A stretch of 64,000 bases of DNA from assembly GCA_964016885.1 (NCBI GenBank), contig OZ024747.1:40920001-40984000 (forward strand). The letters are read 5' to 3'. A model generated the notes under the pieces. It ran no database searches, was not told the DNA's origin, and saw only the letters and a program-made list of their open reading frames with translations. Of this stretch, positions 1,581-62,826 are shown piece by piece; position 1 is the first letter of the stretch; each line of letters opens with the position of its first letter. The DNA comes from Eledone cirrhosa. Its lineage: Eukaryota. The translations under genes were made by a program, and so were the position numbers.

Positions 1581-1581
<1 letters not shown>
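397..1581 (-). mobile_element. 5'-truncated Tx1 copy of a divergent subfamily (ORF2 C-terminus plus 3' UTR)
   Basis: 662-1580 encodes CCQHPSKGGLG...CPRC...ETVAHALVHC...SLYISL, homologous to but diverged from the ORF2 end at 2173-3090. The 3' UTR ends AATAAAAGAAAC on the minus strand and runs into (TCTA)n. Confidence 0.92.
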
Positions 1582-1648
<67 letters not shown>

Positions 1649-1649
<1 letters not shown>

Positions 1650-1901
1650 TGTTTCTTTATTAGCCACAGGGGCACAAAAGAAGGGCCAAATATAAATGGG
1701 GAAGTGTACATACAATAAAAACGTGTAAAATACTATCACAAATGCAATTTAAAAATCAATCGATTTTCCCCAATAAAGGGAGACATTTAATATGGGTAAC
1801 ACATACCCCCGAAAAAATGTGCAACCCTCATCTCCAGGAGTACGAAAAGTGAGTACCCCCTTCCTCTCTTCCTCTTTTTCTTCAACCTACAGGCTGATAT
1901 A
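1649..1901 (-). mobile_element. Very short 5'-truncated Tx1 copy (3' UTR plus last codons of ORF2)
   Basis: Closely matches 1936-2186. Flanked on both sides by GATA repeats. Confidence 0.9.
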
Positions 1902-1902
1902 T

Positions 1903-1936
<34 letters not shown>

Positions 1937-2172
1937 TTCTTTATTAGCCACAGGGGCACAAAAGAAGGGGACAAATACAAAGGGGGAAGTTTACATACAA
2001 TAAAAACGTGTAAAATGTTATCACAGATGGAATTTAAAAGTTAGTCGATTTTCCCCAATAGAGGGAGACAGTTTATATGGGTAACACAGACCCCCGAAAA
2101 AAATGTGCAACCCTCATCTCCAGGAGTACGAAGAGCTTGTACTCCTTTCCTCTCCTCCTCCTTTTCCTCAAC

Positions 2173-5100: not shown

Positions 5101-5614
5101 GTCGATTAACTGTTTGAGGCTGTTACACCCCCCTTTGTCGGGACATGCTCCCACATAGTCCCAACGTGCATCTAGGATTCCATTCCAGTCCCCCACTAAA
5201 AGCAAGGAGCGGGACGTTCCCAGAAAAGTCTCTAGACGTTTGAAGAAGTCTGGCCGCGGTGTCCCGGATGGGGCATATGCGGCCACCAGCCTGAAGGCTC
5301 CACCTTCACTACCGTCAACGTCTAGGACCACCAGTCGACCCTCCGGGTCCAGATGTACCGTCTGTGTTACGCGGCCCAGGTGTTTCCGCAGCAAAACGGC
5401 AACTCCGCCCCCACCCACCCCCCGGTTGACAGAGAGATGCGTAGATCTCAAAGTCATCGAAGATGGGGGCCAGCTGTCGCTCGCCGTGGATCCTGGACTC
5501 GCAAATGGCTACCACATCCAAACTGTGTGACCTGAGGTCGTTTAAGAGTTTGCCCTGTTTCCAGGGCATCCCCAGGCCGCGTACGTTCACACATCCATCT
5601 CTTATATTGGCCAT
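2173..5614 (-). CDS. ORF2 polyprotein (AP-endonuclease, reverse transcriptase, C-terminal Zn finger), ~1146 aa with one frameshift near 5420
   Basis: The N-terminus MANIRDGCVNVRGL..DVVAICES (frame 5315-5614) joins GVAVLL, AYAP, VGDWN, SYLDR, SDHK (APE), KSPGLDGLP, FRPITLLN, LDQSKAFDRVDH, QGCPLS, YADD (RT) and CPRC..ETVAHAFIHC in frame 2173-5457. Removing one G from the G6 run at 5418-5423 fuses the frames. Confidence 0.92.
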
Positions 5615-5647
5615 GTTGGTGCTGAAAAGTTAAAAGAGGAAAAGAGA

Positions 5648-7558
5648 TCACTCACCCTTCGCCTCCTGGGGACCAGGCCGCACGATTTCCATGGGGGTGT
5701 TGGAGGGGTTGTCTGGATGGGTGGTGGTTTCCGGCGGGGTGGGGACGCAGATGTTTGGTGGGGTGGGGTCTGGTGGAATGGGGGTGTCTGGGGTGGGGAG
5801 GCATTTGAGAAGGACGCGGTTGAGTGGTTTCACGCAGGAATTCCCCACATCCTTCTCAAATGTTTCTTTTAGGGACCTATAAGTTTGTATAGGGACCCTA
5901 ATCAGTTTTAGGTTCAGTTTTTTGCTATTTTTTATAGAGTGGGCGAAAGTTTTCCCTTCGGTGAAAACCGAAGGGTCGTTCGTGATGGTCTCCATTAGTG
6001 TTTTGTTTTCAGTGTTTATGTAAGTGTAAGTGTAATTTTCTTGTGTTGTGTTTGTTTTTGTCTGTAGTTCTTGTGTGTGCTTTCGTTTTGTTGTAGGTAT
6101 TTTGTTTTCAGGAGGTGGGGGTTTTGTTTGTGATATTTTTGTTGTTTGTGTTGGTGGTTGTATGTTTGTGGTAGTGTTTGCTGGTTTTTTGCTTTTGTGA
6201 TGTCTTTTCTTTCTTTTCGAGCGATGGGGTTCTCCCTCGTCTTCACTGGGTGATGGCGAGATAGCCTCATCTGTTGTATCGTCTGTGTGATTGGGGAGGG
6301 GTATGTCTTGGGGAGCTGTTGTGTCTGTATGTGATTTTGCAGTGGTTTTAGGTGGAGTGGGGTTGGGTGGGACTGTGTTTGTTGTGGTTATTTTTGTGTG
6401 TTGGTGTTGTTGTGGTGGTGTTGGTGGTTGTGTTGTTTTGATGGGTGTCGGCAGAAGAGCCTTTTTTTGGTTCATTAGTTTAGGACAGGAAGCCCTCAGG
6501 TGACCCCTGCTAAAGCAATGGTAACATGAAGGCCGCCTACCCTCAACCGAAAGGTTTATGTAGGTAAGTCCGTCCAGGAGTACACGCTGTGGGATCATAG
6601 CTATTCGCTCTGGGCTCATTTGCACCAGAACTTCAATGCTAGTCCCATTGAATACATCTCTGGGGGACTTGCCTACTGACAGTATTCTGTCTTCATCAAA
6701 ATTGATGAAGCCGCACAGTATCCACCATATGTTCACCTTTGGTGTGACACTTGTGATTCTGATCTTTTGTGTCCTTTTTCCCATGTATGTAGGGAAAAAG
6801 GTGTACAGGTTGGATACAATTGGCGACACAGAGTAATTTTGGGCCGTCAATTGATCCTTCATCAGTACCGAAATACTCCCAAAAAGTTTGCTTCTTTGAA
6901 TGAATGCAATATCATTCATTGAATCTTTGAAAACCAGTTCAATATCTTTCTGTGACAATTGGACTGGTTTTCGGGTAGAATTGGAAACTGTCCTAAAAAC
7001 TATCGTTTTGAGCGCAGTTTCCTTGCGAATTTCTACCGGAGAATTGATGCTGAAAGCACCATTTTTTTCGAAGGTGACATATCTCTTAGCGTCCTTTAAA
7101 AGGTGTTCAGCATTTGTTATGTCGAGATATATCAATTGTTCTTTCTTTTGAACTTTCTCCGCAAAGGAGATTTTTGGTTTCTTTGTGGAATCCGTATTGG
7201 TGGTGTTGTCATTATTGTTGTTATTCTTGTTGTTATTCTTGTTGTCACCGATGTTGGTATCATCCGTATTTTCCTTGGTGTTGTTGTTGTCTTTGATGCT
7301 GGTGTTATTGGCGTTGTCTTTATTTTTTTCTTTGTTGTTGTTATCATTGTTGCTTTTATCATCATTATTGGTTTTGCTGTTATTTTTGTTGTCATTGAGC
7401 TGTTTGGTGTCATTTGTGTTGTTTGGATGTGAATTCGTTTTTTTATTTTCATTTTGTCTTTCCATCTCTATAGTATCTAGTGAAGAAGACGTTGTTGACT
7501 GCGAGCTCTGTAGTCTTACCGCCTCTCCACCACCATTATCGTTGGACGCAGCGTTCAT
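5648..7558 (-). CDS. ORF1 nucleic-acid-binding protein (636 aa) with CCHC zinc knuckle
   Basis: Intact ORF directly upstream of ORF2. Contains CYHCFSRGHLRASC (CX2CX4HX4C), an Asn/Lys-rich N-terminus and a Pro/Thr-rich C-terminus. Confidence 0.88.
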   Translation of the reverse strand: MNAASNDNGGGEAVRLQSSQSTTSSSLDTIEMERQNENKKTNSHPNNTNDTKQLNDNKNNSKTNNDDKSNNDNNNKEKNKDNANNTSIKDNNNTKENTDDTNIGDNKNNNKNNNNNDNTTNTDSTKKPKISFAEKVQKKEQLIYLDITNAEHLLKDAKRYVTFEKNGAFSINSPVEIRKETALKTIVFRTVSNSTRKPVQLSQKDIELVFKDSMNDIAFIQRSKLFGSISVLMKDQLTAQNYSVSPIVSNLYTFFPTYMGKRTQKIRITSVTPKVNIWWILCGFINFDEDRILSVGKSPRDVFNGTSIEVLVQMSPERIAMIPQRVLLDGLTYINLSVEGRRPSCYHCFSRGHLRASCPKLMNQKKALLPTPIKTTQPPTPPQQHQHTKITTTNTVPPNPTPPKTTAKSHTDTTAPQDIPLPNHTDDTTDEAISPSPSEDEGEPHRSKRKKRHHKSKKPANTTTNIQPPTQTTKISQTKPPPPENKIPTTKRKHTQELQTKTNTTQENYTYTYINTENKTLMETITNDPSVFTEGKTFAHSIKNSKKLNLKLIRVPIQTYRSLKETFEKDVGNSCVKPLNRVLLKCLPTPDTPIPPDPTPPNICVPTPPETTTHPDNPSNTPMEIVRPGPQEAKGE

Positions 7559-7782
7559 AACGTAATCAAAATTTTACAATATTTTTTCCAAGATTCGATG
7601 GAGAAAAATTTTTTAAATGGATATTCCGCCCCTGAAGGGGCGAAAATGAGTTGACCCACCACCTGAAGGTCCAGACGGGTGGTCAAGTTACACAATGATA
7701 TAAAATTGAACTAAAAACTCACGTTTTTTCCTTACATAAATTAACGGAAACTTCTCCGCGAAGTGACACACGACTGATAGAG

Positions 7783-13576: not shown

Positions 13577-13695
<119 letters not shown>

Positions 13696-14015
13696 GTATG
13701 TATATACATAAATATAAGTATATATACGTACATACATATATGTGTACAAACGTAAACCCATACGTACATATATATATATGTACGTATGGGTTTACCGAAC
13801 ATTTATTATAATGTTCGGTTTGTTTGTAAACAAACAGCTCGAATTATAATAAATGTTCTGTAAACTCATACGTACATATATATATGTGTGCATGTATGTA
13901 TATATATATACATACTACTGTACGTCTGTACACATATATGTATGTACCTATACATATTTATATTTAGGTATCAGCCGTACTAAGCGTGAGAAATGAAATT
14001 TCGTTTCATTCTTTT

Positions 14016-14062
<47 letters not shown>

Positions 14063-14192
14063 GAGGTTATATTTAATTTGTTGGGATACAACAAGCAAAA
14101 TATTTTTATAGCTGATATAAAGCACTCAACAAATTATTGGAGTAAATATACAATATAGTAACAAATGGAAACTATATTTATAAAACCATATT

Positions 14193-14258
14193 TATTTCAT
14201 TATACATATTTCAAGGGCCACCGAGGCAAACTATGGTGCGCTTTCATCAGATAAAATA
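14193..14258 (-). ncRNA. Hammerhead motif, family HH-D (related copies 42694-42754 minus, 49820-49885 plus)
   Basis: Minus strand reads TATTTTAT-CTGATGA-AAGCGCACC..GGTGGCCCTT-GAAA-TATGTA-TA-ATGAAATA. Lies in the inverted pair 14150-14385. The 42.7 kb copy has a perfect 8-bp stem I; stem II is imperfect in all three copies. Confidence 0.6.
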
Positions 14259-14398
14259 TAATATAGGTTAGTTTTATAAATAAATATTGACATACCCATA
14301 GTTTGCCTTGGTGGCCCTTGAAATATGTATAATGAAATAAATATGGTTTTATAAATATAGTTCCCATTTGTTAATATATTGTATATATATACATATAC

Positions 14399-14491: not shown

Positions 14492-14498
<7 letters not shown>

Positions 14499-15351
14499 GT
14501 TAAAAGCGTACATCTACATATGTATACTGAAATACTAGTATGCATATAAATACACACATGTATACATATGTACATGTACTGAGTTTTTCACTGGACACTT
14601 TACTGTGAGTGTCCAGCTAGTTTGTATGTAACCAAACAGACAAACCGGGTTTTAGAGTCATACGGGTTTTCAAGGAAACACATTTCCTCTATTCTCCAGA
14701 GAGCTAGACAGGAATATTGGACTAGTTTCGATGTTATTACATCTCATCAGCAATATATACCCATCTTCCGGCTTCTCTAGAGAATCGTAAAAGCACATAT
14801 CGTTATATGCTTTTTCTATGAAAATTAGTAGTGGGCAGACTAATTTGCATAGAACGTGAGTCATTGTACGCACCGGTTCCGCTGAACCGGTGCGTACAAT
14901 GACTCACGTACAATGACTCACGTTCTATGCAAATTAGTCTGCCCACTACTAATTTTCATAGAAAAAGCATATAACGATATGTGCTTTTACGATTCTCTAG
15001 AGAAGCCGGAAGATGGGTATATATTGCTGATGAGATGTAATAACATCGAAACTAGTCCAATATTCCTGTCTGGCTCTCTGGAGAATAGAGGAAATGTGTT
15101 TCCTTGAAAACCCGTATGACTCTAAAACCCGGTTTGTCTGTTTGGTTACATACAGACTAGCTGGACACTCACAGTAAAGTGTCCAGTGAAAAACTCAGTG
15201 CATGTACATATGTATACATGTGTGTATTTATATGCATACTAGTATTTCAGTATACATATGTGGATGTACACTTTTAACTTAATTGTTTAAGCGTCAGTCA
15301 TACAAAAGTGAGTTAGAAGCGAAACGAAATTTAATTTCGTTTCGTTATTTG

Positions 15352-15357
<6 letters not shown>
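14492..15357. mobile_element. Palindromic insertion of family HH-B in a (TA)n tract
   Basis: Left arm 14492-14879 is the reverse complement of ~14884-15284. The right arm extends ~74 nt further. A 14-bp duplication (tacaatgactcacg) sits near the centre. Confidence 0.88.
15021..15063 (+). ncRNA. Canonical-core minimal type I hammerhead (HH-B); mirror copy 14714-14756 on minus
   Basis: ATATTG-CTGATGA-GATGT aata ACATC-GAAA-CTAG-TC-CAATAT. Stem I 6 bp, stem II 5 bp, palindromic stem III ACTAGT, GUC triplet (predicted cut after 15057). Confidence 0.88.
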
Positions 15358-15445
<88 letters not shown>

Positions 15446-21500: not shown

Positions 21501-22624
21501 ATCGGTGGTCGATTGGCAATATCGGTAGAGGGTCTGACGCCATGCTAGGGCGGTGGATTGGCAGTATCTGTAGAGGGTCTGACGCCATGCTAGGGCGGTG
21601 GATTGGCAGTATCGGTAGAGGGTCTGACGCCATGCTAGGGCGGTGGATTGGCAGTATCTGTAGAGGGTCTGACGCCATGCTAGGGCGGTGGATTGGCAGT
21701 CTCGGTAGAGGGTCTGACGCCATGCTAGGGCGGTGGATTGGCAGTATCTGTAGAGGGTCTGACGCCATGCTAGGGCGGTGGATTGGCAGTATCTGTAGAG
21801 GGTCTGACGCCATGCTAGGGCGGTGGATTGGCAGTCTCGGTAGAGGGTCTGACGCCATGCTAGGGCGGTGGATTGGCAGTATCGGTAGAGGGTTTGACGC
21901 CATGCTAGGGCGATGGATTGGCAGTATCGGTAGAGGGTCTGACCCCATGCTAGGGCGGTGGATTGGCAGTATCGGTAGAGGGTCTGACGCTATGCTAGGG
22001 CAGTGGATTGGCAGTCTCGGTAGAGGGTCTGACGCCATGCTAGGGCGGTGGATTGGTAGTATCGGTAGAGGGTCTGACGCTATGCTAGGGCAGTGGATTG
22101 GCAGTCTCGGTAGAGGGTCTGACGCCATGCTAGGGCGGTGGATTGGTAGTATCGGTAGAGGGTCTGACGCTATGCTAGGGCGGTGGACTGGTAGTATCGG
22201 TAGAGGGTCGGACGCCATGCTAGGGCGGTGGTTTGGTAGTAGCTGTAGAGGGTCTGAGCCATGCTAGGGCGGTGGATTGGCAGTATCGGTAGAGGGTCTG
22301 ATGCCATGCTAGGGTGGTGGATTGGTAGTATAGGTAGAGGGTCGGACGCCATGCTAGGGCGGTGGATTGGCAGTATCGGTAGAGGGTCTGATGCCATGCT
22401 AGGGTGGTGGATTGGTAGTATAGGTAGAGGGTCGGACGCCATGCTAGAGCGGTGGATTGGCAGTATCGGTAGAGGGTCGGACGCCATGCTAGGGCGGTGG
22501 ATTGGTAGTATCGGTAGAGGGTCTGACGCCATGCTAGGGCGGTGGATTGGAAGTATCGGTAGAGGGTCTGACGCCATGCTAGGGCGGTGGATTGGCAGTA
22601 TCGGTAGAGGGTCGGACGCCATGC
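21501..22624 (+). repeat. 45-bp minisatellite, ~25 units, derived from the 5' head of SINE family 1
   Basis: Unit gggcggtggattggcagtatcggtagagggtctgacgccatgcta. The last unit continues into a SINE body (22625-22772). The same head is single-copy at 47047-47090 (minus). Confidence 0.92.
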
Positions 22625-25166
22625 TTTGCAGCAAAGAGTTACGTCTCTTTATGGTTTTAGTTCAAATCCTGCCGAGGTTAACTTTGCCTTTCATCCTTAC
22701 GAGGTCGATAAAATAAAGTACCAGTAATGTACTGCGATAATTGCTGGCCTTGTGCCTATAGTAGAAACAGTTATGAAAGCGACGTCGATTCTTTGAACAA
22801 AACAACTGCAACCTAAATTGGCATTATCAAATCCTGAGAAAATATATAATAGCAATCAGTAACACCAAAACAAAGTAAAAGAAAACATATCAGAGACAGT
22901 AGAGACAGTGAGACAGTCACCAAGTAAAACCCTGAACAAAAGGCACCAGGAAATAATATCCTAACTTGCTTGTTGATATTGTTTAGCAAGCACACAGAAA
23001 TTCTGACGAAACTATTTAATAACACACAAGAAAGGAAAAAAAAACAACAGTTGACTGGGTTAGTGATGGCCAAACTACATTAACTCTTAATATCTAAAGA
23101 AACAGTAAAACCTAATATCTACAAACACATCTACAATAATTCATTTACAGAGTACAGAGGAGATGCTACAAACGCATATATAGATGTAAACTTTGTTCAT
23201 GAATATCCGTCAGTTTTGGGGATGACTGTCCCAGTTGTTCATACAATGGAAGAACTTGCAAGTTGATGTGTATTCAACAGATATGTACACCAGCTGATGT
23301 AGTGCACAGGGAAATTCAGTGTCACACAGTGCGAATTACAGGTAGAATTCATTTTTGCCAACTGTGTAAACTGGAGCGACATGAAATAATGTGTTTTCCT
23401 GAGGGACACAGCCGACTGCCACGATGATCGGGAGCAGAATACTCTAACTTCTAAGCCATGCGACTTCACAGCTATAAGTATAAATTATTAACAAAATCAT
23501 AACCTTAGACTACAGAAGAAATGAAGGTCTGGGCATGACATCGATTTATTACCAGAAGACTTTCTGTGATCTCGAAATATGAGCAAGGCAGCCCCAATAG
23601 TAATCATGCGCATTAAACATAAATACATAGCAAATTTCCCCATCTCTAAACGAAGACAAATATTTTCTCAAGAGGTTTCCTTCTCTTCAGCCTTTTTTCT
23701 GTTTGACATTAACACTTTTAAACAGCAGGTTAAACCAGGGTGGGTATGGGTACAACTGCTACCGCAAGACAATCAAATATTTTTTTGGTAGGTCACCTCA
23801 AAATATACGCCATATATGGGGAAACAGGCAGAAATGTTGCCACATACAAGACCCGGCTTCACCAGAGAAACTAATATGTTATTCGGTCTACAGAAATTCA
23901 TCAAAGACAATATGAAACAAAGAAAAACTAATTAAGATTAAGAACACTAATTTCATGATACATTATGAAACATAGATAAAAGAATTTGGCAAAACACGAC
24001 TGACAAAGACTTACGAACACTTAGCAATCATTTAGCAAGAGACGGTACAACAAAAGTAAATGAAAGAAAAGATTAAGAAGAAATATTATAGATACATTAA
24101 AACATGGTTAAATGCAAAACAGGATAATATCCATCAATATCCAAGCTGAACTGTAATAAGTTATAGTTACAATATTCTCAAATGGATGCTAAATGAATTA
24201 CGAAGACTTCACAGAATGAAAACCCCAATAATGACTCCATTTAGAATACACCAATTGAATTATGATACAGAAATACATTTACTATGGATACAAGTAGACG
24301 TAGGCATGCTGCAACTATAGTATATTCATTGTAGGATTACAAAGTTTTCAAGTAAAACATAATGGAATTTAATATAAATACGTAGAAAACACGAACAGTG
24401 CGAAAAACTATTTTCTAAAAGGTATGAAACAAAGTTTGAAGTGACAGACATATGTGAGAAGAAACGAGAAACAACAACAATAGCAACAACAGCATCAACA
24501 AAAATGTTTACAAAACCCAATAAAAAGTTAGTTAATCGTGGGACTACAGAATACTATACTAAAATATTGACATGGAAAGCCATGACGTGTTCAATAACAG
24601 AAAGAACTGAATTAGAGAAAATATATTAAGAAACGCCATAGCATTGATTGAGGTGTGAAAGACACAAAGCTGAGATCAAAGGAAGTTTTCTATTTTGGAA
24701 CAGTAACAGAGCGTTCTCACTAAGAACCACCAAAACTTGTAATGACGCTGAATACAAGAAATAACTACAGGTTATGTAATGGTTAATAAGAAACAATGCC
24801 CAGCTAAGTGAAGAATAAATACATCTCCATAGTTAGATCTTTCATAAAATGAGATGTATGCCAGAATTATGAAATACCAGCATGAAACGGTTCAGTATAG
24901 GCATACGCGATAAAATGTCTGAGAGAATGATAAATGGTTCCTAGTTAACTATACAACACTGTTATAATAAAGTAGATACATAATTTAAGTGAATATAGTT
25001 CTAGGATGGTATAACAGGTGTTATAACTTAACACTATATCTATATAATTGTATGTACATATATATATGTGTGTGTTTATACACTCACGCAATGAATGTAC
25101 ATTCACTTTCCCATTCTTCCATGTATATACATATATATGCATATACATATATAACTAGATAAGCAT

Positions 25167-35528: not shown

Positions 35529-36260
35529 GTGAACGTGACGCTTGAAACTTATGTGTAATTGTGAATATCAACTAATAATATTTCTTTCGGTAACCATTAA
35601 CGTCTCAAATAGCTGCGTATCTTTAAAATTCAGGACATCTTTAAACATGACGCATCCATATTTTCTATTATTTTAAAAGGAAAAAAAGTTTGTGTATTTT
35701 GTACAACAATGAACATATTAATAATTTCAACAGAGAGTGCTAACCTTTTAGTTTCATCGAAATTTTATATTAGACACTTGAACACGAAATATTAAATATT
35801 GTGTAAAAAATATAGAAATATACAAGTATATAAAATATTACAAATGTATAGAAATAGAATATAAAGACAAATTTAAAAATACTGCGTATCTTACGAAAAA
35901 GTTGTGCGTTATGACATGTAGAGCTCTGTCTTGATTTAATTTCGATTACTTAATTTGCTTATTTCTTTACACGTACAATTTTGAGAAGACATGGACATCG
36001 CCATAACTCAATCGAAATAAATAGAAGCTATTATTAGCGACATAAGTTCCTTCACAGAAATACTCCAGCCACTGGCTCTCTGATGTAGTATCTTTATCTC
36101 TGCTTATTCTACCGCTAATAAATGGCATCTGCTCCACGGTTTTAGCTGACTTTGTGCTACTTCCACTCTTTTACACCCGATTCACTCATCTCCATTTCTC
36201 TTATCACTCATTAGTCCAATCCTCCAGGCCCAACAATTTTAGAGAATAAATAAGAATTCT

Positions 36261-37863
36261 TAAGTTAAAAATGTACATCCACATATGTATACTGAAATAC
36301 TAGTATGCATATGAATACACACACGTATACATATGTAGATGTACCGAATTTTTCACTGGTCACTTTACTGTGAGTGTCCAGCTATTCTGTATGTAAACAC
36401 ACAGACAAACCGGTTTTTAGAGTCATACTGGTTTTTGAGGAAACACCTTTCCTCTATTCTCCAGAAAGCCAGACAAGGAATATTGAACTAGTTTCGTTGT
36501 TGTTACAACTCATCAGCAATATTTACCTATCTTCCGGCCCTTCTAGAGAATCGTAAAAGCACATATCGTTATATGCTTTTTCTATGAAAATTAGGAGTGG
36601 GCAGACTAATTTGCATAGAGCGTGAGTACGTACCGGTTCAACGGAGACGATAAAAACAAATAACGAAACGAAATTAAATTTCGTTTCGTTTGTAACTCAC
36701 TTTTGTATGACTGACGCTTAAACAATTAAGTTAAAAATGTACATCCACATATGTATACTGAAATACTAGTATGCATATGAATACACACACGTATACATAT
36801 GTAGATGTACCGAGTTTTTCACTAGTCACTTTACTGTGAGTGTCCAGCTATTCTGTATGTAAACACACAGACAAACCGGTTTTTAGAGTCATACTGGTTT
36901 TTGAGGAAACACCTTTCCTCTATTCTCCAGAAAGCCAGACAAGGAATATTGAACTAGTTTCGCTCTATGCAAATTAGTCTGCCCACTACTAATTTTCATA
37001 GAAAAAGCATATAACGATATGTGCTTTTACGATTCTCTAGAAGGGCCGGAAGATAGGTAAATATTGCTGATGAGTTGTAACAACAACGAAACTAGTTCAA
37101 TATTCCTTGTCTGGCTTTCTGGAGAATAGAGGAAAGGTGTTTCCTCAAAAACCAATATGACTCTAAAAACCGGTTTGTCTGTGTGTTTACATACAGAATA
37201 GCTGGACACTCACAGTAAAGTGACCAGTGAAAAACTCGGTACATCTACATATGTATACGTGTGTGTATTCATATGCATACTAGTATTTCAGTATACATAT
37301 GTGGATGTACATTTTTAACTTAATTGTTTAAGCGTCAGTCATACAAAAGTGAGTTACAAACGAAACGAAATTTAATTTCGTTTCGTTATTTGTTTTTATC
37401 GTCTCCGTTGAACCGGTACGTACTCACGCTCTATGCAAATTAGTCTGCCCACTACTAATTTTCATAGAAAAAGCATATAACGATATGTGCTTTTACGATT
37501 CTCTAGAAGGGCCGGAAGATAGGTAAATATTGCTGATGAGTTGTAACAACAACGAAACTAGTTCAATATTCCTTGTCTGGCTTTCTGGAGAATAGAGGAA
37601 AGGTGTTTCCTCAAAAACCAGTATGACTCTAAAAACCGGTTTGTCTGTGTGTTTACATACAGAATAGCTGGACACTCACAGTAAAGTGACCAGTGAAAAA
37701 CTCGGTACATCTACATATGTATACGTGTGTGTATTCATATGCATACTAGTATTTCAGTATACATATGTGGATGTACATTTTTAACTTAATTGTTTAAGCG
37801 TCAGTCATACAAAAGTGAGTTACAAACGAAACGAAATTTAATTTCGTTTCGTTATTTGTTTTT
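36261..37863. mobile_element. HH-B multimer: 466-bp tandem units, ~1.5 on minus then ~1.9 on plus, with a 12-bp TSD
   Basis: Hammerheads at 36480-36522 (minus), 37061-37103 and 37527-37569 (plus; spacing 466). Inversion junction at ~36962. aataagaattct at 36249-36260 and 37864-37875. Confidence 0.9.
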
Positions 37864-38697
37864 AATAAGAATTCTAATATCGTAAAAGAGTATGTTCTCG
37901 TCACAAGAGAGGCTGACTGTTGATTGGCGAAAGGAGGTACAATGATATTTACTGGGTAGATGAAGGATATCTACCGTCTGTTCTATAGTTCATCATTATC
38001 ACTATCATCATTATCGCCGTCGTCATCATCATCACCATCATCATCATTATTCTCATCATCATCAACACCATCATCATCATCTGCTTGAGAGGTGGAAAGT
38101 GTATCCAAAGTTCTTTGGCGATTATGGCTAAGAACAAAGAGTAATATTTAAAATGTTAACATTTATCCCTCGAGTTTCTGTAAGGCTGGAATTACAGACA
38201 GTATCATATATTCAATGGTCATATTTTACAAATTTCCGTTAAGTGAAGTAATCCGTAACATGAGTTTCCGTAATTCAAGGGATGTCTGTATTCTGAATAG
38301 ATAACTATGTACGCACAGCAGAGCAAGCTGTTTGCATATTTTGCTATACAATAGTGATAGCAGTAGCTATTATTTTCCTTGCAATGATGTACAAGGCTTT
38401 TTCCTCCTGTATTAAAAAGAAGCGAGGCATATTTTTTTTTAATTTGCTAGCAGTATTATCTAAACTACTTTATTCTGTCGCTAGATTCGTGTTGTTAGGA
38501 TAGTATATCTTCATCATATCTACGCGTGATGAAGATAGAATACCTTAGTACTATAATAAAAATGAATCTATTGTCTTTATTCGATATTCAAGTTTTGGTT
38601 AATATAGATTTCTAATATGGGCACAGGGCCAGCAAATTTTAGCTGAATGGCAAATAGATTAAATCAACCCCAATATCTGACTGGTGTTTTATTTTAT

Positions 38698-41919: not shown

Positions 41920-42185
41920 CTATGGCTTCCTAAAACCGTATTTCTTTCGAAATACGAAATGTCTATACATATTGTATAAAGCTATGCTTGAAGCGAAATC
42001 CTATTTCTTTTCTATTATAAGTTGAGCCAACTTATGCAGCTACATATGCAAATGAGATTAATCGCCTCATTTACACAGACGAGAAAACTATATATTCTCG
42101 GCTGTTTTCAAGTCCAGCAGTCGCAAGCGGTGGGAGGGACCTTCCTGACGATGGCCGGCTAAGCCTGAAATGCATAGACACATTC
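41920..42185 (+). mobile_element. Family HH-E copy with hammerhead motif at 42141-42180
   Basis: CTGACGA-TGGC cggctaa GCCT-GAAA-TGCA-TA with a weak stem I. Homologous to the tandem units at 45317-45900. Confidence 0.6.
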
Positions 42186-42596: not shown

Positions 42597-43599
42597 CTGT
42601 ATATATATAACAAATTTTAGGCACTCTACAGGTTTTCTGGAGTATAATATCAATGATATTAATAAATGGAAACTATATTTATAAAACCATATTTATTTTA
42701 TTATATATATTTCAAGGGTACCAAAATGTTGCTACGCCCTCATCAGATAAAATACAAATTTGTTTTATAAATGGTGACATACCCATGAAACCAGACCTTA
42801 TCGGTTCAGGTCACCATTTATAAAACAAATTTTGTATTTTATCTGATTAGGGCGTATATATATATATATATATATATGCACGCGTATGTGTGTGTATTAT
42901 TTATTATCATTTTTCGTACACACGATAGTATCGCGTGTAAGCCTTACTCACCAATTGGGAATATAAATATTGCATTTGTGTGTGTGTGCGCGTGTGTGTG
43001 TGTGTGTGTGTGTGTGCGTGTGTGTGCGTGTGCGTGGATATGTGTGCGTGTTAGCTCATGACAGGTTTTCGGCATATAAGCATCTGGAGACAGAAAGGTG
43101 GACATTATCAGTTGGTCCCACATTTCCACTTTTTGCAGCTCTAGATGTCTTCAATTGTAAGACTATTTCTTTCATAATGGAAATCTCTGTTTTGAAACTG
43201 CTTACTAACATACACTCAAAATTCATAATTTTCTCAATGCTTACTATAGATTCTTCTTATCACCGACTTGGATTTACCTACGATTGGATTACAACGAATC
43301 ACCACCGATCCACCAGTCTTTTCCTGTAGGATCTTCATCACCGGCTCAACACCGTTACAATTCACCATGACTCAACTCTTGACTTTCGTCTAAAAAAAAT
43401 TTTTTCTCTTTTCTCTTTTTTCTTTTTTCCGACCTTCCTCGATTTCTTCCCTTTGTCCCTATTTTGATTCAATTCCTCTTTCTATTATCTTTTTTACATT
43501 TTCTTGTTCCTGCCCCCCTCCCTGCTTTCCACGCTTTCACTGTTTCCTTTGGGTTTTTTTTTACCACCGTCTCCCCTTGGACATCTCGTACCCAACATG

Positions 43600-45278
43600 C
43601 CTAACCTAAAATTCTTCCTTCAACAATTCCACACCCACCACTTCCTCGCTCCTCTAATCCCGCCCTGCTACCTCCAACCCACCCTCCAACTCTCCTACTT
43701 CCTTTTCACTAACAACCAACATTCCAGCCACATCCAATTCCTCAACCGCTGCCTCCATCTCCACCTCATCCCCCACAGATCCCGACTCCACTTCCACACC
43801 TCCTCTCCCGCATCACCCTCAACCCAACACATTCTCACCCACTCCTCGTGTCTCCTCATGCGCGCCTCACTCCGCTCCTCCTTCTCCACCATCTGCAACC
43901 TCTCCCCAACCCTCCTTCGCCTCCGCTCCACCTGTCATCCTCTCCTCGCCCACTCAATCATTCTCTTCATCCATAACCCCAATTAACGATCTCCTTCCCC
44001 ATCTCCACCAAACTCCACAATCTCAACGTATCCCCCCCCCAACCACCACCCTCCTAACCCCACACGTCTTTCCCCCACCTACCATCAACACTCCATCAAC
44101 CACACATTCCCCTTCCCCTCCCTCTCTTCCACACCACCTCCTCCACTTGTCACCACACCGCCCAACCTCCCCTTCTCCGAACCTGAACGTTCACTCCTTA
44201 GTAGAGGGGTGCGCTTCATACCCCCACACCCCGTACAGCGACGAGTTCCGCACTCGAGTGGGCGTCAAGCGGATCGTGAGACGCACCAAGCTACACGCGC
44301 ACTTTCTTAACACTCCACAGGCTCCCTCACCCTGGGCCGACGACCATCATATTGGACACCGGCTCTCGGACAGTTCAGCACACTGGACGCCTTTGTCAAT
44401 GCCTGCTGTAGCGCAGTAAAGCGCTTCGACTTCCAGCACCGCCCCAGACGGAGTAACATCACTCGGGCTGAACTTCCCTCGTAACCGTGATGACGTCGTC
44501 ATCAAACCGGTGGACAAGGGAGACGCCGTGGTGATGTGACGTGCTGGCCTCTACATGGCTGAGGCCCCCAGGCAACTCCGCAACGCCCTCTTCTACCGCC
44601 TATACCCTCTGATCCCACCCCTTTTCGACTCCCTCACCTTCCCACCCAACCCACTCCCCCTCCTCTTCACCCTAGACATAAATCCCCTTTACACCGTCAT
44701 CCCCCACGCCGACGGCCTACGCGCCCTCCAACACTACCTTGACCTTCGTCCCTACCCCGCCCTCTGCACCTCCACTCTCCTCCTCCTCGCCTAGCTGGTC
44801 CTCACCCTTAACTGCTTCTCCTTTTCGGGTGAATTTTACCAGCAAGTCACTGGGGTAGCCATGGGCACAAGAATGGGCCCCAACTATGCCAACCTTTCTG
44901 TTTACCAAATACACTGGTCCCACCCCCAAATTATACGGTCGTTATATTGACGCCTGCATCGGGGCCACGGCTCTCACCCGAGAACAGCTCGTCTCCTTTC
45001 ACTCTTTCCCTTGTTCCTTCCATCCCTCCCTCAAATTCACCACCTCCATCTCCACCACCTCCGTCCACTTCTAGGACATCTCCGTCGCCATCAACCTCTC
45101 CCACCGATCACTCATCACCTCCCCTTTATTCAAACCCACCGACTCCCACTCCTACCTCGACATTACTACCTCCCACCTCACTCACACCAAACACTCCATT
45201 TCCTACTCCCAACTTCTCCGGATCCGCCGCCTTTGCAGCCAAGACGCGGACTTCGAGACCCAGGCCCTTTCTCTAGTT
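43600..45278 (+). pseudogene. Decayed Penelope-like element reverse transcriptase
   Basis: Frameshifted motifs in order: IKPVDKG, LFTLDINPLYTVIPH, FYQQVTGVAMGTRMGPNYAN, YGRYIDAC, FHPSLKFT, KPTDSHSYL, YSQLLRIRRLCS. No GIY-YIG domain is retained. Confidence 0.8.
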
Positions 45279-45284
45279 GTCAAT

Positions 45285-45900
45285 TCACGGTATGTTTATG
45301 AATAAACATTCAGAAAGGCCTCATTTACACAGACGAAAAAACTATATATTTTCGTCTGTTTTCAAATTCCGGCAGTTGCAAGAGCGGGAGAGATCTTCCT
45401 AGCCAAAACCAGTTGAGTTAGCAATGCATCGACGATTGTCCCTCTTGCTTCTGCCGGGCACCACCTGGTGGCGATAGCTGGAAGTGTTAGCTGGCTATGG
45501 CTTTCTAAATGTTTATTTATAAACATACCGTATTTCTTTAGAAATACGAAATTCAAATACATATTTGTAAACGGCTATGTTCGAAGCTAATTTCTAATTC
45601 TATTCTATTATAAGTTGGGCCAACTTATGTAGCTTCATATGCAAATGAGATTAATCACCTCATTTACACAGACGAAAAAACTATATATTTTCGCTTCTTT
45701 TCAAAATCCGGCAGTTGCAACAGCGAGAGAGATTGTCCTAAGGAGAACCAGTTGAGTTCGATATGCATTGACAATTGTCCCCCTTGCTTCTGCCGAGCAC
45801 CGCTTGGTGGCGTTAGATGCCAGTGTTATTTAAAGTTATGGGTTTCTAAATGTTTTTTCATAAACATACCATATTTATTTGGAAATGCGAAATTCAAATA
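45285..45900 (+). repeat. HH-E tandem (~339-bp period) preceded by a short inverted piece; degenerate hammerhead at 45732-45775
   Basis: cctcatttacacagacgaaaaa at 45319 and 45658. ATTGTC-CTAAGGA-GAAC..GTTC-GATA-TGCA-TT-GACAAT keeps the stems but has core mutations. Confidence 0.65.
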
Positions 45901-45935
45901 CACACACACACACACACACACACACTATCACACAT

Positions 45936-55822: not shown

Positions 55823-56603
55823 TGAGAGAGATAGACGTGTTAATTAGAGCCGAGATAGAGGTGTGGTATAGGTCGAAAAGTACTCCACAACTGTAGTAGG
55901 AGGTATATAAATCAGAACAGAACTCGTTTAAAATCAGTTAGACCATTACTCAACACAGTACTTGATACTTGGGGTAATAAAGTATGGTTATATTATAAAG
56001 AGTCGGCACCCGTCGGCTGAGCTCTTGCCGTTTCAACTGCTAGACACTGGACCTAGCTACTTCTTTTAAGTGGTATAACATTAAATAACTGTTTCTACTT
56101 TAAGCACAAGGCCAGCAATTACCCAGTGCATTACTGGTACTTTATTTTATCGACCCCGTAAGGATGAAAGGCAAAGTCAACCTCGGCGGGATTTGAACTC
56201 AGATCGTAAAAGTCAGATTTGTATAGAAGTGAATTTAAATTTGTACTTCAACCTCTTTATGAACTGATGATATATTCAAGTGGATGTTAGTTTGAATGGA
56301 CACATAAATCTTCAAATATGGAAGTGGCGATATCTTCGCTCATTGACCTTACCTTGCCATTGTCACTTTGTTTCATCTAATTGTTGTCGAGAATTCCTAT
56401 TCATCCGAATATCAGCATGGAAACATGATACAGAATAAATAATATAGTTATCAATTATATTATTGTCCCTTCGTCCTATAGTTACATATAGGTTTGCACG
56501 CATGTACATGCATACACATACACACACATACATGCATATATTATTCATGTGTGTGGGTGCGTGTGCGAGCATGAGTGTATACACACACACACATACACAC
56601 ACA

Positions 56604-58148
56604 CAGTCCTTTTAACCTCGTCCACCATATAACCTCTTTCACCATAGCCATAACACATAGGAAAACCGCCTCTCCCTCGTTTTTGAAGGAGGGTGGCGGT
56701 TTGATCATGACAATAGACTCGGTGGTCAACTGGATTGGTCCCATCCGCGACAATAGTCGTTCTACATAGCCCCACAAGTCGGTAACCACCGGGCAGTATC
56801 CAAATGCGTGGGCGACGGTTTCCTCGTCGCGCACGCATCTCGGACAGATCTTTTTCGAAGGGTCCCTGATCGGGCGCCCGTGTCTGTAGAGCTTGTCTCG
56901 AACTGGTAGAGCTCCTCGGTAGCACTGCCACGCCAGGGACTTTTGGAAGTTATCCATTGGTCCCGGGCGGAAGGTCCTACCGAACAGACTGGCCAGTTCG
57001 TCCTCCTCTACGCCTAGAGTTTCTCCGAGCGCGTCGTCGCACTTGCTGCGGACCAACCCTCTATAGAATGTCGAAGTTGAGTCTCCACTGATCGCCGGGT
57101 CCGTTTGCCAGAGGACTGTGAGCGCCTGAGCACATTCGATGTGCCAGTCGCCCATTTTCCTCGGTCTTTGCTTGACCCAGGACTGCAGCTCGGTCAGCAA
57201 GACGAGTCGTGGGAAGGCTCGCCTCACGAACGGAGCCCACACCGGTTGTCCGGTGAGGAATACCTGGAGGTGCCGCAGCCTGAGCACGTGTTTGCGCATC
57301 GTCAGCCACGGCATCCCCAGCCCTCCGTTTGAAGGGTGTTGGTAGCAGATGGATCTTCTCACCAAAGGAGCCCGTTTCTTCCAAAGGAATTGGAAGAGCG
57401 TGCGCTCTATTTTGGTGAGCGTTTTGGCTGGACAAGGCACGACGGTCAAGCGGTAGTAGATGACAGACGCTATAAAAGTGTTCGCCACCTCCGCTCGACA
57501 TTTCAAGGATAGTTTGCACTCGGCCCACTTCTGGGTGAGCGCAAACACCTTGGCCGTCACCTCGTTCCCGTTCTTCTCCACCTGGAGGTCCGGACCAAAG
57601 CAGACCCTGAGCAGCTTTACCGGTCCTTTCGTCCAGCGTCCGACGACGCCATCGGAAGGCATCGGTTTGCCTCTCCACGTCCCGAGTTGCAAACCGACGG
57701 ATTTGTCCCGGTTCAGCTTCGCTCCTGTGATCCTTTCGTATTCCTCCAGTAAGGTGCCGACCTCCTCGATTTGCGAGATGCTCGACACCATTACTGACAC
57801 ATCGTCGGCGTAGGCCGACGCCGCTTTTCGCAGTCCCGGTTCCAGAGGGATACCCTGCAATAGCTCCAACTTCCGCAGTAGTGGCTCGAGAATCAGTACG
57901 TACAGAAGGGAGGAGAGAGGGCATCCCTGTCGGATGGATCGCGTGATATGGAACGGCTCCGAGAGGTAGCCGTTCACCTTGACCCTTGAGCAGATGTTGG
58001 TGCTGTGCATTGCAAAAATCCATCCCCTAAACACGGGTCCGAAGCCTGCCGCCTCGAGCACCGCATCCAGGTAATGATGGTCAACCCTATCGAAAGCCTT
58101 AGACTGATCCAAGTTGATCAGGGCCCCACCGAAGCCGAGTTTACACCC
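56604..58148 (-). mobile_element. Dispersed Tx1 copy truncated at both ends (RT to Zn finger, frame still open)
   Basis: Highly similar to 2347-3891. Ends at WWTRLKGL against (CA)n. (TAGG)n lies ~20 bp from the 5' junction. Confidence 0.92.
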
Positions 58149-60734
58149 GAATAATGTTTTTTCTTTTTTGATAGGTAGGTAGGTAGGTAGGTAGGTAAAA
58201 GGAATAAATCTATTGTCTAGAGAAATATGTAATAGATATTGTTCAACTTACCCCATCCGATAATGATACAATAGGTAAACTTGATCTTGTTGTGACGCAT
58301 CGCATGGACAATCATGAAATACAAATACAATCCTTCAACAAACATCCAAAAGAAACTAGACGTCGTGAAATACTGGAACAATGTCATCAACAGCTTACAT
58401 ACCCACTGAAAAATATATAAAGAATAATAACAGAAATTTTGGAGTTATCGTTGTATTTTTCTGTTTTACTAATATACTAATTTTATAAGAAAATTCTAAA
58501 TTTTCAATTACTTGAAAATAAAGAATTTAATATTTAGTTAAATATAAAGAAAAAGAAAGTAGCTAAATGAAAGACTATAATTGTGAGGAGATGAAGGGAA
58601 ATGGCAAGGATTATTAAGCAATGAAAGAAAGAAAAGGGGAAGAGGAGAGGATGTCACCGAAGTAATTCTGTTGTGTGTATGCATGCATAGGCCCGTAACT
58701 CTTGAGAGAGACGTGGGAGCGCCATATTGACATATGGCGTTCCTAGGCCATTTTAAAACTTGGCGGAGTCCAATCTCTCAAGGTCTGAATACAGCGGATT
58801 TCTTCCAGCGGAGAGAGAGAGAAGGCGAGGGGAGAAAATAGAAGTGAGAAAAAGATATAGAGGAAGAACCGCCTACAGTACTAGACTGGTACTTTTTATA
58901 TAGACTTTGAATGGATGAATGGCAAAATTCACCTCGGCGGGATTTGAACTCAGAGAGCAGAGAACCGAAAGGAATACCGCATAGCCTTCTATCCGACGTT
59001 CTAACGACTCTGCCATTCACAATATTGTGGGTATATATATATGTATTTAAATGTTCTAATGTCATTATAAACAGTTTTCTGATGTGACAAAACATTCAGA
59101 GAAAGATCATTTCAAATTAATTATCGTGGTTTCGGAGTTCTATTTATTAAGTGGCTTAATTTGAGACCGCGCGTTGAACGTAAAGCAATTTCATCGTTGG
59201 AATTCATCATTTTTACTATTAAAAACACACAAAAAGGTATTAAATTTACTTTCCAATTATTATTTATGAGAATGGCCCTGTCGCTAGAATCGCGATGAAC
59301 ATTTTTGCCACCATGAAGTAAATTAAAAGATGTGAGGGAAATTGCGCAGTTTTTGTATAATTTTTGTATGGTTAAAATGATTCTACCACGATATAATTGA
59401 ATGCTAGAAGTAATATCATTGGTATATTGTAGAATCTCGGAGGAATTTCTCTTTCTTATGTAGTTTATAAGAGGATATATTGAAGATTTGTTTCTTCTCT
59501 CCAGACTTTCATTCAAATGGACTGAATAATGCTGGTCAGTAATCCGCAAATTAGATTCCGATAAAGAAAACATTTCGGGATTCTGCGAGAGAAAAGGACA
59601 TCTAATAAGATTTAATGAAATTTATTATATGTTTACTATATATGAATAAATTAAGTTTCTGAAAGAAATCCGTTTTATTCAATGTCTTACTAAAATTATA
59701 GTGGTGGATATTTTCCGTAATATGTAGGTATAGGTTCCGCAGATTTTGGAAAATTATATAAGTGATGCGCTGATTCTATAAAACCGTATAAGGGTTCCAT
59801 GATAGTTGGAAAATAGTATAATTAATAAAGTAAGTTTGGGAATCACAGCTATAAGTTAAGTAGGTTCACACACATACAAATCTCTTGCGTATAGCTTCAG
59901 TACATCAAGACTAATCAGTAGTTACATTACTGTTTTCTCTTTTACATGGGTTGTGCCGATGCTGAAGCAGCGCTATTTTTACTTTTATTGGTACTGGATA
60001 CGAAATTCAAGAAAGCCAGATTCTATCTGATTGATAAAGTTTGATTTAACGGTCATAGAACGTTTCTTTTCTTTGGAAACATTTTCAGCTAAAACAAGTT
60101 ACAAACCACACGTTAAAATATTTATATAATTTCTGTTCCAATTGATATTTCTAGTAAATATACATTATTTATACATGCTGAAAATTCTATAAAACTGAGT
60201 TTCTAGATTTCGAAGGAATATGAAGGTAGAAATAAAAGCTGCATATATTTGTTGTAACTATTCATTTTCTTCAATTAGCTATATTTCTGTACCAGACAAA
60301 TTACATATTATATATTTATGAAAAATGACTACAGGCGTTTACAAAATATATATAATTTCAAGCATATGATTAATCTCACTTCCATCACAGGCGTATCAAT
60401 AAAATAAGGATAATTAATATACACTACTAATTACATGTTTCCCAGTGAAACGTAATTTCAGCTTAGTCAAAACCACTTTCGAATTATCATCGGCTGGATT
60501 AACAGATTTCTTAGACTAACTGACAAATATGTTGTAGTATTTGTCACGGCTCTTTGCGTTCAAATTCCTCCGAGGTAAATTGTGCCTTTCATCTTTTCGG
60601 GGATCGATACAATAAAGTACCAGACAAGTAATTAGATGGATACAACCGTCTTGCCACTCCCTCAAATTGCTGGCTTTCTGTCTAAATTAGCAATCAGGGA
60701 CGCTCCGTGGAACATCCACTTTAACATTTTATAG

Positions 60735-62500: not shown

Positions 62501-62724
62501 TGTATGTATATATATATGAGGCACAAAACAAAGAAAAGAAAGAATCCCCGGTCACTGATGAGGTCACAGAATATGTGATGAAAGAACTTTGACAATATAT
62601 GAACCACCGTCAAGTTGTGGAACCAACCAACCAACCGGAAATTTATAATTTAATTTATAATAAATTGGAGTGAAAGCAACTGGTGCGTGTGTTTCTTATC
62701 AACATGACCCTCCCAAAGTATAAC

Positions 62725-62826
<102 letters not shown>

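What the first reader, a model, noticed from the sequence alone, without database searches (positions are those of the whole stretch)
36249..37875. Young 466-bp hammerhead multimer with inversion, 12-bp TSD and compensatory mutation
Seen: nearly identical 466-bp units with one hammerhead each, no real ORF, and the TSD aataagaattct. Stem II is GTTGT/ACAAC here versus GATGT/ACATC at 15034-15047, a double compensatory change indicating selection on RNA structure. The inversion junction lies inside a hammerhead (36962). Inference: reverse transcription around a 466-nt circular or multimeric RNA, as proposed for retrozymes, inserted by target-primed RT. This is the best single candidate for experiments.
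Basis: partly seen in the sequence, partly recalled or inferred. Interest (0 to 1): 0.85.

Follow-up and report, generated by a model that had tools for sequence, protein, structure and literature searches.

The report
Two-armed self-cutting RNA jumping element
This is one of thousands of young copies of a non-coding repeat carrying a predicted self-cutting RNA motif, pasted in as two back-to-back arms that each end at their own fixed point, a pattern that likely records a borrowed Penelope-type enzyme copying one small circular RNA into both strands of a DNA cut.

Summary
Confirmed: 36260-37864 holds 3.45 units of a 466-bp non-coding repeat as two head-to-head arms, three whole type I hammerheads and a 12-bp duplication. 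It is one copy of a large family (9,226 exact hammerhead cores), a non-LTR retrozyme with Penelope-like insertion anatomy. 80 of 88 complete two-armed copies pair an end at site A with an end at site B about 73 nt upstream, never A+A or B+B; 11 of 18 readable duplications are 12 bp. Both arms, and all units, of a copy share one haplotype; two of the three exceptions carry a mutated catalytic core, which favours a hammerhead-cut monomer circle as template. One copy is joined to the end of an abundant intact Penelope-like element, a candidate helper with no sequence homology. The stem II covariation is real (6 mismatches in 9,226), but the junction inside the hammerhead is chance. RNA, cleavage and an empty site were not shown. 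Known class; this scan noted two-armed fixed-start elements before on other DNA.

The parts
36249..36260 (+). Left copy of the 12-bp target-site duplication (last base shared with the element)
   Evidence: 12 bp is the family mode, 11 of 18 readable cases
36260..36962 (-). Inverted arm, 1.51 units; outer (3') end at family site B (unit 391), inner end at unit 155
36479..36523 (-). Complete minimal type I hammerhead (core starts 36516); predicted cut after 36486
36945..36962 (-). 3' half of a hammerhead, cut by the junction
36961..36962 (.). Head-to-head junction, 2-nt overlap shared by both arms
   Evidence: overlaps of a few bases are common in the family
36961..37864 (+). Direct arm, 1.94 units; inner end at unit 29, outer (3') end at family site A (unit 466)
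37060..37104 (+). Complete hammerhead: helix I 7 bp, core at 37067, stem II 5 bp, 2-bp helix III in a palindrome; predicted cut after 37097
37526..37570 (+). Complete hammerhead, core at 37533, stem II 37540-37553; predicted cut after 37563
37790..37864 (+). 'Tail': the stretch between sites B and A, present at this end only; holds a 29-nt hairpin at 37825-37853
37864..37875 (+). Right copy of the 12-bp target-site duplication (first base shared with the element)

Best explanation
This is a young copy of a non-coding, hammerhead-bearing repeat family whose two arms end at two fixed sites, and it was likely made when a borrowed Penelope-type reverse transcriptase/endonuclease nicked both DNA strands 12 bases apart and copied one, probably circular, 466-nt RNA from both nicks. 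Steps: (1) a tandem copy is transcribed on the hammerhead strand (inferred); (2) neighbouring hammerheads pair through the palindromic helix III, cut out monomers, and these are ligated to circles (predicted fold; cleavage and ligation untested); (3) the helper protein nicks AT-rich DNA, mostly (TA)n, with a 12-nt stagger (target and duplication length shown, enzyme inferred); (4) one nick primes at site A, the other at site B about 73 nt upstream in the same unit, and both run on past the unit boundary (fixed ends, A+B pairing, shared haplotype and multi-unit arms shown; internal initiation by analogy with PAc); (5) the two cDNA ends join over a few matching bases, giving the head-to-head layout (overlaps shown, repair inferred). 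Odds by part: Penelope-type double priming about 0.9; monomer circle about 0.65; the abundant 1,270-aa element as helper about 0.5.
For: A+B in 56 of 60 and 24 of 28 complete two-arm copies, none A+A or B+B. 140 of 153 outer ends in (TA)n. Duplications: 18 of 120 loci readable, 11 exactly 12 bp; swapped-flank control 18 of 400. Site B is also a pile-up of read ends in two other samples' raw reads (86 of depth 182, 78 of 174). Arms share a haplotype: 0.73 differences within a locus against 8.0 between loci (22 loci), 0.92 against 7.3 (25 loci). Both arms exceed one unit in 19 of 56. 16 rare alleles in 9 of 56 informative loci are fixed in every unit of both arms; in 21,277 site tests at 54 loci the arms disagree 146 times but share a unit-specific allele only 3 times, and two of these loci (L093, L106) are the only ones whose arms share a mutated C3 core base. 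No indel at unit 160-172 in about 150 units; no excess of 5' ends at the cut (7 against 5). Two hammerhead regions co-fold in the double-hammerhead topology; sense strand -158 against antisense -127 kcal/mol. Inherited alleles keep pairs more often than private ones (29/59 against 30/105, p = 0.011; antisense control p = 0.51). With a distant sister family, 6 of 14 hammerhead pairs change on both sides, 0 of 500 shuffles reach the covariation score; cleavage base is C, U or A in 437 of 437. An intact PLE in this genome has the same anatomy (17 of 18 A'+B'; 47 of 47 ends in TA) and is joined head-to-head to a retrozyme A arm in L090. Literature: PMC11167929 (both strands cut and extended, two internal start sites, tail), PMC7229834 (retrozyme circles).
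Against: No RNA evidence and no cleavage test. PMC11167929 found hammerhead cleavage dispensable for PAc in vitro and saw no difference in start site between strands; the 2026 preprint saw cleavage in 1 of 9 dimers. The core shows no significant deficit of inherited alleles (1 in 13 sites, p = 0.14; whole hammerhead p = 0.36), and 'pairs with a change on both sides' did not beat shuffles (89 of 500). The dead-core argument rests on 2 loci, one of them found by searching for that mutation. Higher-order repeats also occur with intact or tolerated cores (L110, L191, L107-109), so long arrays are reshaped locally; 5 rare alleles in 3 loci are partly spread. Three of 47 loci have discordant arms (4-5 differences) and two chimeras (L090, L207) show that two RNAs can be used. 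No DNA homology between the unit and any of three active PLE families sampled; L090 could be a deletion between neighbours, as that PLE lies near 14 of 97 loci. The tail is about 73 nt, against 30-40 bp in the papers. No empty site found.
Confidence: 0.65

Rival explanations
1. Same Penelope-type double priming, but the template is an uncut linear read-through transcript of an existing array; the hammerhead is a passenger or a protein-binding fold, and long arrays grow by local duplication.
For: Cleavage was dispensable for PAc in vitro (PMC11167929). Minimal hammerheads cut poorly (PMC4209133). Local higher-order repeats exist. Core conservation test not significant.
Against: New alleles should then be inherited one unit at a time in both arms; 16 rare alleles are fixed across all units and only 3 unit-specific ones are shared, 2 of them at dead-core loci, against 146 private differences at the same sites. 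Caveat: very young parents would carry few private alleles.
Confidence: 0.15
2. A monomer bottleneck without a circle: RT copies a linear monomer or 1.x-mer and jumps back repeatedly onto the same or a sibling RNA through the terminal repeat.
For: Explains homogeneous arrays equally well; chimeras L090 and L207 and the stuttered start in L053 show that jumps happen; L040 switches haplotype inside one arm.
Against: No pile-up of 5' ends and no scars at the cleavage site; arrays of up to 14 identical units (L038) need many exact jumps.
Confidence: 0.12
3. A SINE-like RNA inserted by a LINE with L1-type twin priming, the inversion arising from chance annealing of the second strand.
For: Inversion plus duplication at an AT-rich site; LINE-type ORFs lie in the window.
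Against: No poly(A) end; the inverted arm starts at unit 389-399 whatever the target; the autonomous element with the same anatomy is a GIY-YIG PLE.
Confidence: 0.04
4. An assembly artefact, or a DNA-level palindrome or satellite without an RNA step.
For: Tandem and inverted repeats are hard to assemble; no record was laid across the whole element; a few loci are long satellite-like arrays.
Against: Same anatomy at 80 of 88 dispersed loci, constant 12-bp duplication, four private differences between units here, strand-asymmetric fold and covariation; a run's contig runs from the left flank 30 bases into the element (31 are needed to count as bridging, and the run may be the assembly's source).
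Confidence: 0.03

Closest known systems
Non-LTR retrozymes of animals (Cervera and de la Pena 2020, PMC7229834; Li, Clavereau, Pollet, bioRxiv 10.64898/2026.07.22.740005)
   Same: Tandem non-coding monomers with one type I hammerhead each, low GC, duplication longer than 4 bp, strongly folded monomer, short palindromic helix III predicted to need a dimer, co-occurrence with active PLEs.
   Different: 466 nt is just above the 150-450 bp range of the 2020 paper (inside the 51-972 bp of the preprint). The parts read describe neither two inverted arms with fixed start sites nor a constant duplication length. The preprint links retrozymes to pLTRs by homology; none was found here in three PLE families. 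Expression and circles were shown there, not here.
Insertions of endonuclease-positive Penelope-like elements: inverted 5'-truncated copy and one-sided tail (PMC3846280, PMC8557442); PAc biochemistry (PMC11167929)
   Same: Head-to-head arms, tail at one end only, two fixed ends, AT-rich or (TA)n targets, 8-10 bp duplications reported there, hammerhead upstream of the start sites, palindromic or microhomology junctions.
   Different: No ORF; tail about 73 nt; both arms often exceed one unit; strict A+B pairing, whereas PAc in vitro showed no strand difference in start site.
Non-autonomous Chlamys elements such as MRC1 (passage in PMC8557442)
   Same: Non-coding, multicopy head-to-tail insertions mobilised by a PLE.
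   Different: Those resemble their autonomous partner at the 3' end and mostly lack hammerheads; this one has a hammerhead and no detected homology to a partner.
Plant LTR retrozymes (as described in PMC7229834 and the preprint)
   Same: Hammerhead-delimited non-coding RNA proposed to move through circles.
   Different: Type III hammerhead, LTRs, 4-bp duplication, Gypsy helper; none applies here.

Membership tests
Non-LTR retrozyme | At least two consecutive tandem units, each with a complete type I hammerhead | tested here: met
   Cores at 37067 and 37533, 466 bp apart; fold and covariation
Non-LTR retrozyme | No protein coding | tested here: met
   Longest stop-free frame 60 codons in six frames of the plus arm
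Non-LTR retrozyme | Monomer of a few hundred bp, GC under 50% | tested here: met
   466 bp; GC 0.358 for 36001-38000; slightly above the 150-450 bp of PMC7229834
Non-LTR retrozyme | Target-site duplication longer than 4 bp, dispersed copies | tested here: met
   12 bp here and in 11 of 18 readable loci; copies on many contigs
Non-LTR retrozyme | No primer-binding site or polypurine tract | not tested
   No search was made; the layout has no LTR-internal-LTR form
Non-LTR retrozyme | Self-cleavage of the transcript | not testable with these tools
   Only the predicted double-hammerhead fold
Non-LTR retrozyme | Expressed as linear and circular monomer RNA | not testable with these tools
   No RNA run was available to lay; genomic pattern favours a monomer template
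Insertion made by an EN+ Penelope-like element | Inverted 5'-truncated copy, head to head | tested here: met
   This locus; 88 complete two-arm loci
Insertion made by an EN+ Penelope-like element | Two fixed 3' ends separated by a tail found at one end only | tested here: met
   80 of 88 A+B; tail about 73 nt, longer than the 30-40 bp in the papers
Insertion made by an EN+ Penelope-like element | AT-rich or microsatellite targets | tested here: met
   140 of 153 outer ends in (TA)n
Autonomous Penelope-like element | RT plus GIY-YIG ORF | tested here: not met
   No ORF; not filed as autonomous
Solo or tandem pLTR of a known autonomous PLE | Sequence homology to the pLTR of an ORF-bearing copy | tested here: inconclusive
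   None with three active families; a fourth, Nematis-like by recalled motifs, and any others were not searched
Plant-type LTR retrozyme | Type III hammerhead in LTRs, 4-bp duplication | tested here: not met
   Helix I is the open helix (type I); 12-bp duplication
L1-type twin-priming product | Poly(A) end, and inversion start set by chance match to the target (recalled definition) | tested here: not met
   No poly(A); start fixed at unit 389-399

The most novel reading that the evidence does not exclude
The hammerhead works in vivo and sets the unit of inheritance: a 466-nt circle is gripped by the dimeric protein of an unrelated-in-sequence Penelope-like element, whose two active sites start at two different fixed points on the same circle and roll out both arms of an insertion; a dead ribozyme forces a dimer template, and the helper recognises RNA shape rather than sequence, so it can join arms from different families.
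Probability: 0.4. Interest if true: 0.75.

Novelty: new member of a known kind. Interest (0 to 1): 0.52.

Why it matters
How Penelope-like elements finish an insertion, whether their hammerheads do anything in vivo, and whether retrozyme circles are really the transposition template are stated as open in the papers read (PMC11167929, PMC8557442, PMC7229834, the 2026 preprint). This family gives countable predictions (12-nt stagger, one start at A and one at B, one template for both arms, monomer-level inheritance broken at dead ribozymes) and a candidate intact helper in the same genome, so the questions can be tested in vitro with a small RNA. The class itself is known and this copy is one of thousands.

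Tried and rejected
Rfam at gathering threshold: no match in the window. Junction inside the hammerhead as a signal: rejected (9 of 112 against 11 expected; within 10 nt of the cut 7 against 5). L055, an alternating dimer with a mutated core in every second unit, first looked like proof of ribozyme-set circles; set aside because higher-order repeats also occur with intact or tolerated cores. Genome-wide mutant-core counts: C3 37 units, none in adjacent units; U7 18 units with one 4-unit fixed array; loop II 10 units with one adjacent pair: in the expected direction but too few. Core conservation test not significant. A-arm length distribution not used: the BLAST-ranked loci are biased to long arms. 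Sequencing runs: no RNA holder listed; this is no evidence on expression. Empty allele: left flank is single-copy in the assembly; run X1 shows no branch at the insertion point but may be the assembly's source; the two RAD runs and runs of organisms B-E do not cover the flank. Helper by homology: none in three PLE families. Pfam gave no hit for the candidate helper ORF; it was classed as a PLE from its motifs and from distant relatives carrying PF00078 and PF01541; its clade was not tested by a tree. Sequence look-up in earlier findings: nothing. No fold or complex prediction was run.

Full report
What is there. The stretch is as described. With the unit numbered from window 37399, a minus arm runs 36260-36962 (1.51 units, outer end at unit 391) and a plus arm 36961-37864 (1.94 units, outer end at 466); they overlap by two bases and are flanked by the only two copies of a 12-mer in the window. 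Four private differences in about 1,600 bp make it young. There are three whole hammerheads and one half. The motif is type I with a 7-bp helix I, a 5-bp stem II and a 2-bp helix III inside a palindrome; two copies co-fold in the double-hammerhead topology, the arrangement that PMC4209133 describes for animal hammerheads. No frame exceeds 60 codons.

The family. The 3.0-Gb genome holds 9,226 exact matches to the 34-nt core pattern, control 0. I examined 137 stretches: 37 and 38 from two BLAST searches (40 of 61 and 40 of 901 candidates scored, so biased to long, close copies), 60 chosen from pattern hits, and the two window copies; a few are pieces of one long array. Of 97 stretches, 63 had two inverted arms, 60 complete; 56 pair an outer end at unit 455-4 (site A, mostly 463-467) with one at 386-400 (site B), 4 have one end elsewhere. 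Of 40, 24 of 28 complete junctions are A+B. None is A+A or B+B. Six apparently single-armed copies have a tiny second arm of the opposite type. 140 of 153 outer ends lie in (TA)n; this copy is an exception, which is why its duplication is readable. Of 120 loci examined, 18 show a flank match of 8 or more bases containing C or G, and 11 are exactly 12 bp (control 18 of 400). Inner junctions are scattered; the one here falls in the hammerhead by chance (9 of 112, 11 expected).

The compensatory pair. Genome-wide only 6 of the 9,226 cores have the pair mismatched (3 and 3); in 147 units 58 had one paired form, 89 the other. Linkage alone would give this, so I tested the whole unit on 72 loci: alleles shared by several units of a locus fall less often on paired sites (57 of 290 against 43 of 137, p = 0.010) and keep the pair more often than private alleles (29 of 59 against 30 of 105, p = 0.011), with no effect on the antisense fold (the structure comes from the window unit, whose own alleles were excluded). 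An alignment of 18 chosen distinct hammerhead variants, 6 from more distant relatives, has 6 of 14 pairs changed on both sides; percentage paired and covariation score beat all 500 shuffles and all slid controls, the count of changed pairs did not. Against: the catalytic core alone shows no significant deficit of inherited change.

The template. In 55 two-arm loci (12 stretches left out as nested, truncated by the fetch, misaligned or old arrays), 47 had 150 or more shared positions; 38 of these have arms differing at 0-1 polymorphic sites, against 7-8 between loci, and 3 differ at 4-5. So both arms usually come from one RNA haplotype; post-insertion conversion is not excluded but private differences persist. 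Read-through of an older array should pass on unit-specific alleles to both arms. Instead 16 rare alleles in 9 of 56 informative loci are fixed in all units, 5 in 3 loci are partly spread, and in 21,277 tests at 54 loci only 3 unit-specific alleles are shared against 146 disagreements. One is a common subfamily allele (L081). The other two loci, L093 and L106, are the only ones whose arms share a mutated C3; L106 was found by searching for that mutation, L093 was not. This is what a ribozyme-cut monomer would give, with a dimer when the core is dead, but it rests on two loci. No scars or 5'-end excess at the cut site argue for a ligated circle over linear monomers. That C3 is essential is in PMC11167929; that U7 is tolerant is recalled.

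The helper. A PLE lying beside several copies is very abundant and intact: RT motifs, C-terminal GIY-YIG with a CX4CxxC linker and CCHH residues (the Neptune/Naiad-type description in PMC8557442; clade untested), its own hammerhead, two ends about 60 nt apart, 17 of 18 two-arm copies A'+B', all 47 ends in TA, three readable duplications compatible with about 12 bp (12-14). In L090 a retrozyme A arm is joined head-to-head to this PLE's short end inside one interrupted microsatellite; in L207 a sister family's A arm is joined to this family's B arm. Both obey the A+B rule across families. But there is no sequence homology, two other active PLE families exist, and a deletion between neighbours could mimic L090. 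The closest named relative of the helper is an Octopus vulgaris protein (67%), so a cephalopod-like host is an inference only.

Reads. No RNA holder was listed. Raw reads of two other samples of the same species label pile up at site B. No empty allele was seen, and array length was not checked by reads.

Comparison and novelty. It meets the testable criteria of a non-LTR retrozyme and carries the insertion signature of endonuclease-positive PLEs. Seen: bioRxiv 10.64898/2026.07.22.740005 parts 1-3 of 5; PMC11167929 parts 1-2 of 4; PMC7229834 parts 2 and 4 of 6 and passages; PMC4209133 parts 1-2 of 4; PMC3846280 passages; PMC8557442 passages and section 11. No supplements were read; they may list this family or the helper. 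Six searches showed no paper reporting strict A+B pairing, shared arm haplotypes or monomer-level inheritance for a retrozyme; the library lacks most subscription papers, and a one-sided tail on inverted copies is already in print. Earlier AI notes of this scan report two-armed, fixed-start elements in this and other genomes; I read them after reaching my reading and do not count them as support.

Verdict. A real, young member of a known class, interest 0.52. Shown: anatomy, copy number, fixed paired ends, 12-bp duplication, shared haplotype, covariation. Inferred: transcription, cleavage, circle, the enzyme and its identity.

Noticed in passing
window 14493-15358: Sister-subfamily copy (about 472-nt unit, GUC site) with the same B+A layout in (TA)n and a short palindromic, duplicated filler at its junction.
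   Followed up: yes
L207 1053-1997 (minus); also L100, L185, L244; fragments at window 13599-14010: A distant sister family (472-nt unit, same site A, GUA site, five double changes in hammerhead stems, U-U in place of the first stem II pair). In L207 its A arm is joined to this family's B arm over 7 matching bases.
   Followed up: partly
L146-L151, L225-L244; fragment at window 62519-62729: Very abundant young PLE (26,720 first-look candidates, 129 scored, 96-100% identical; stop-free frames of 1,263-1,282 codons in 6 of 6 loci fetched), own hammerhead, two ends about 60 nt apart; closest named relative an Octopus vulgaris protein at 67%.
   Followed up: partly
L152-L181: Two more young PLE families (15,514 and 27,470 first-look candidates); one has a hammerhead-like motif downstream of its ORF.
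   Followed up: partly
unit 223-224 (window 37155-37156, 37621-37622): 10 of 239 arm 5' ends fall exactly at unit 224 (9 from the first BLAST set), and G223A is the commonest private change (6 of 398, non-CpG): possibly an RT pause or a modified base.
   Followed up: partly
L053, L096, L097, L103, L118, L123: Copies scored as single-arm have a 9-40 nt second arm of the opposite type; L053 shows a stuttered start at site B.
   Followed up: partly
L107-L109, L110, L191, L040: Long arrays (about 58 units in L107-109) with mosaic higher-order repeats; L040 has two haplotypes in one arm.
   Followed up: partly
runs X4-X7 laid on window 35750-36725: Runs labelled with four other organisms hold the unit, mostly 90-99% alike, joined end to start as a 466-bp loop; none covers the flank. 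Shared ancestry, transfer and diet are not separable here.
   Followed up: partly
window 14152-14389 and 42600-42856: A second, unrelated hammerhead family, each copy with inverted arms.
   Followed up: no
window 44180-45290: Decayed PLE-like RT with stops and frameshifts (identification from recalled motifs).
   Followed up: no
window 45319-45902 and 41935-42146: Tandem pair of a roughly 339-bp unit (84% alike) with another partial copy; no hammerhead core found.
   Followed up: no
window 662-7573, 56541-58247; 21507-22625: LINE-type ORFs (641 and 1,111 codons, plus fragments) and a 45-bp minisatellite of 25 copies.
   Followed up: no
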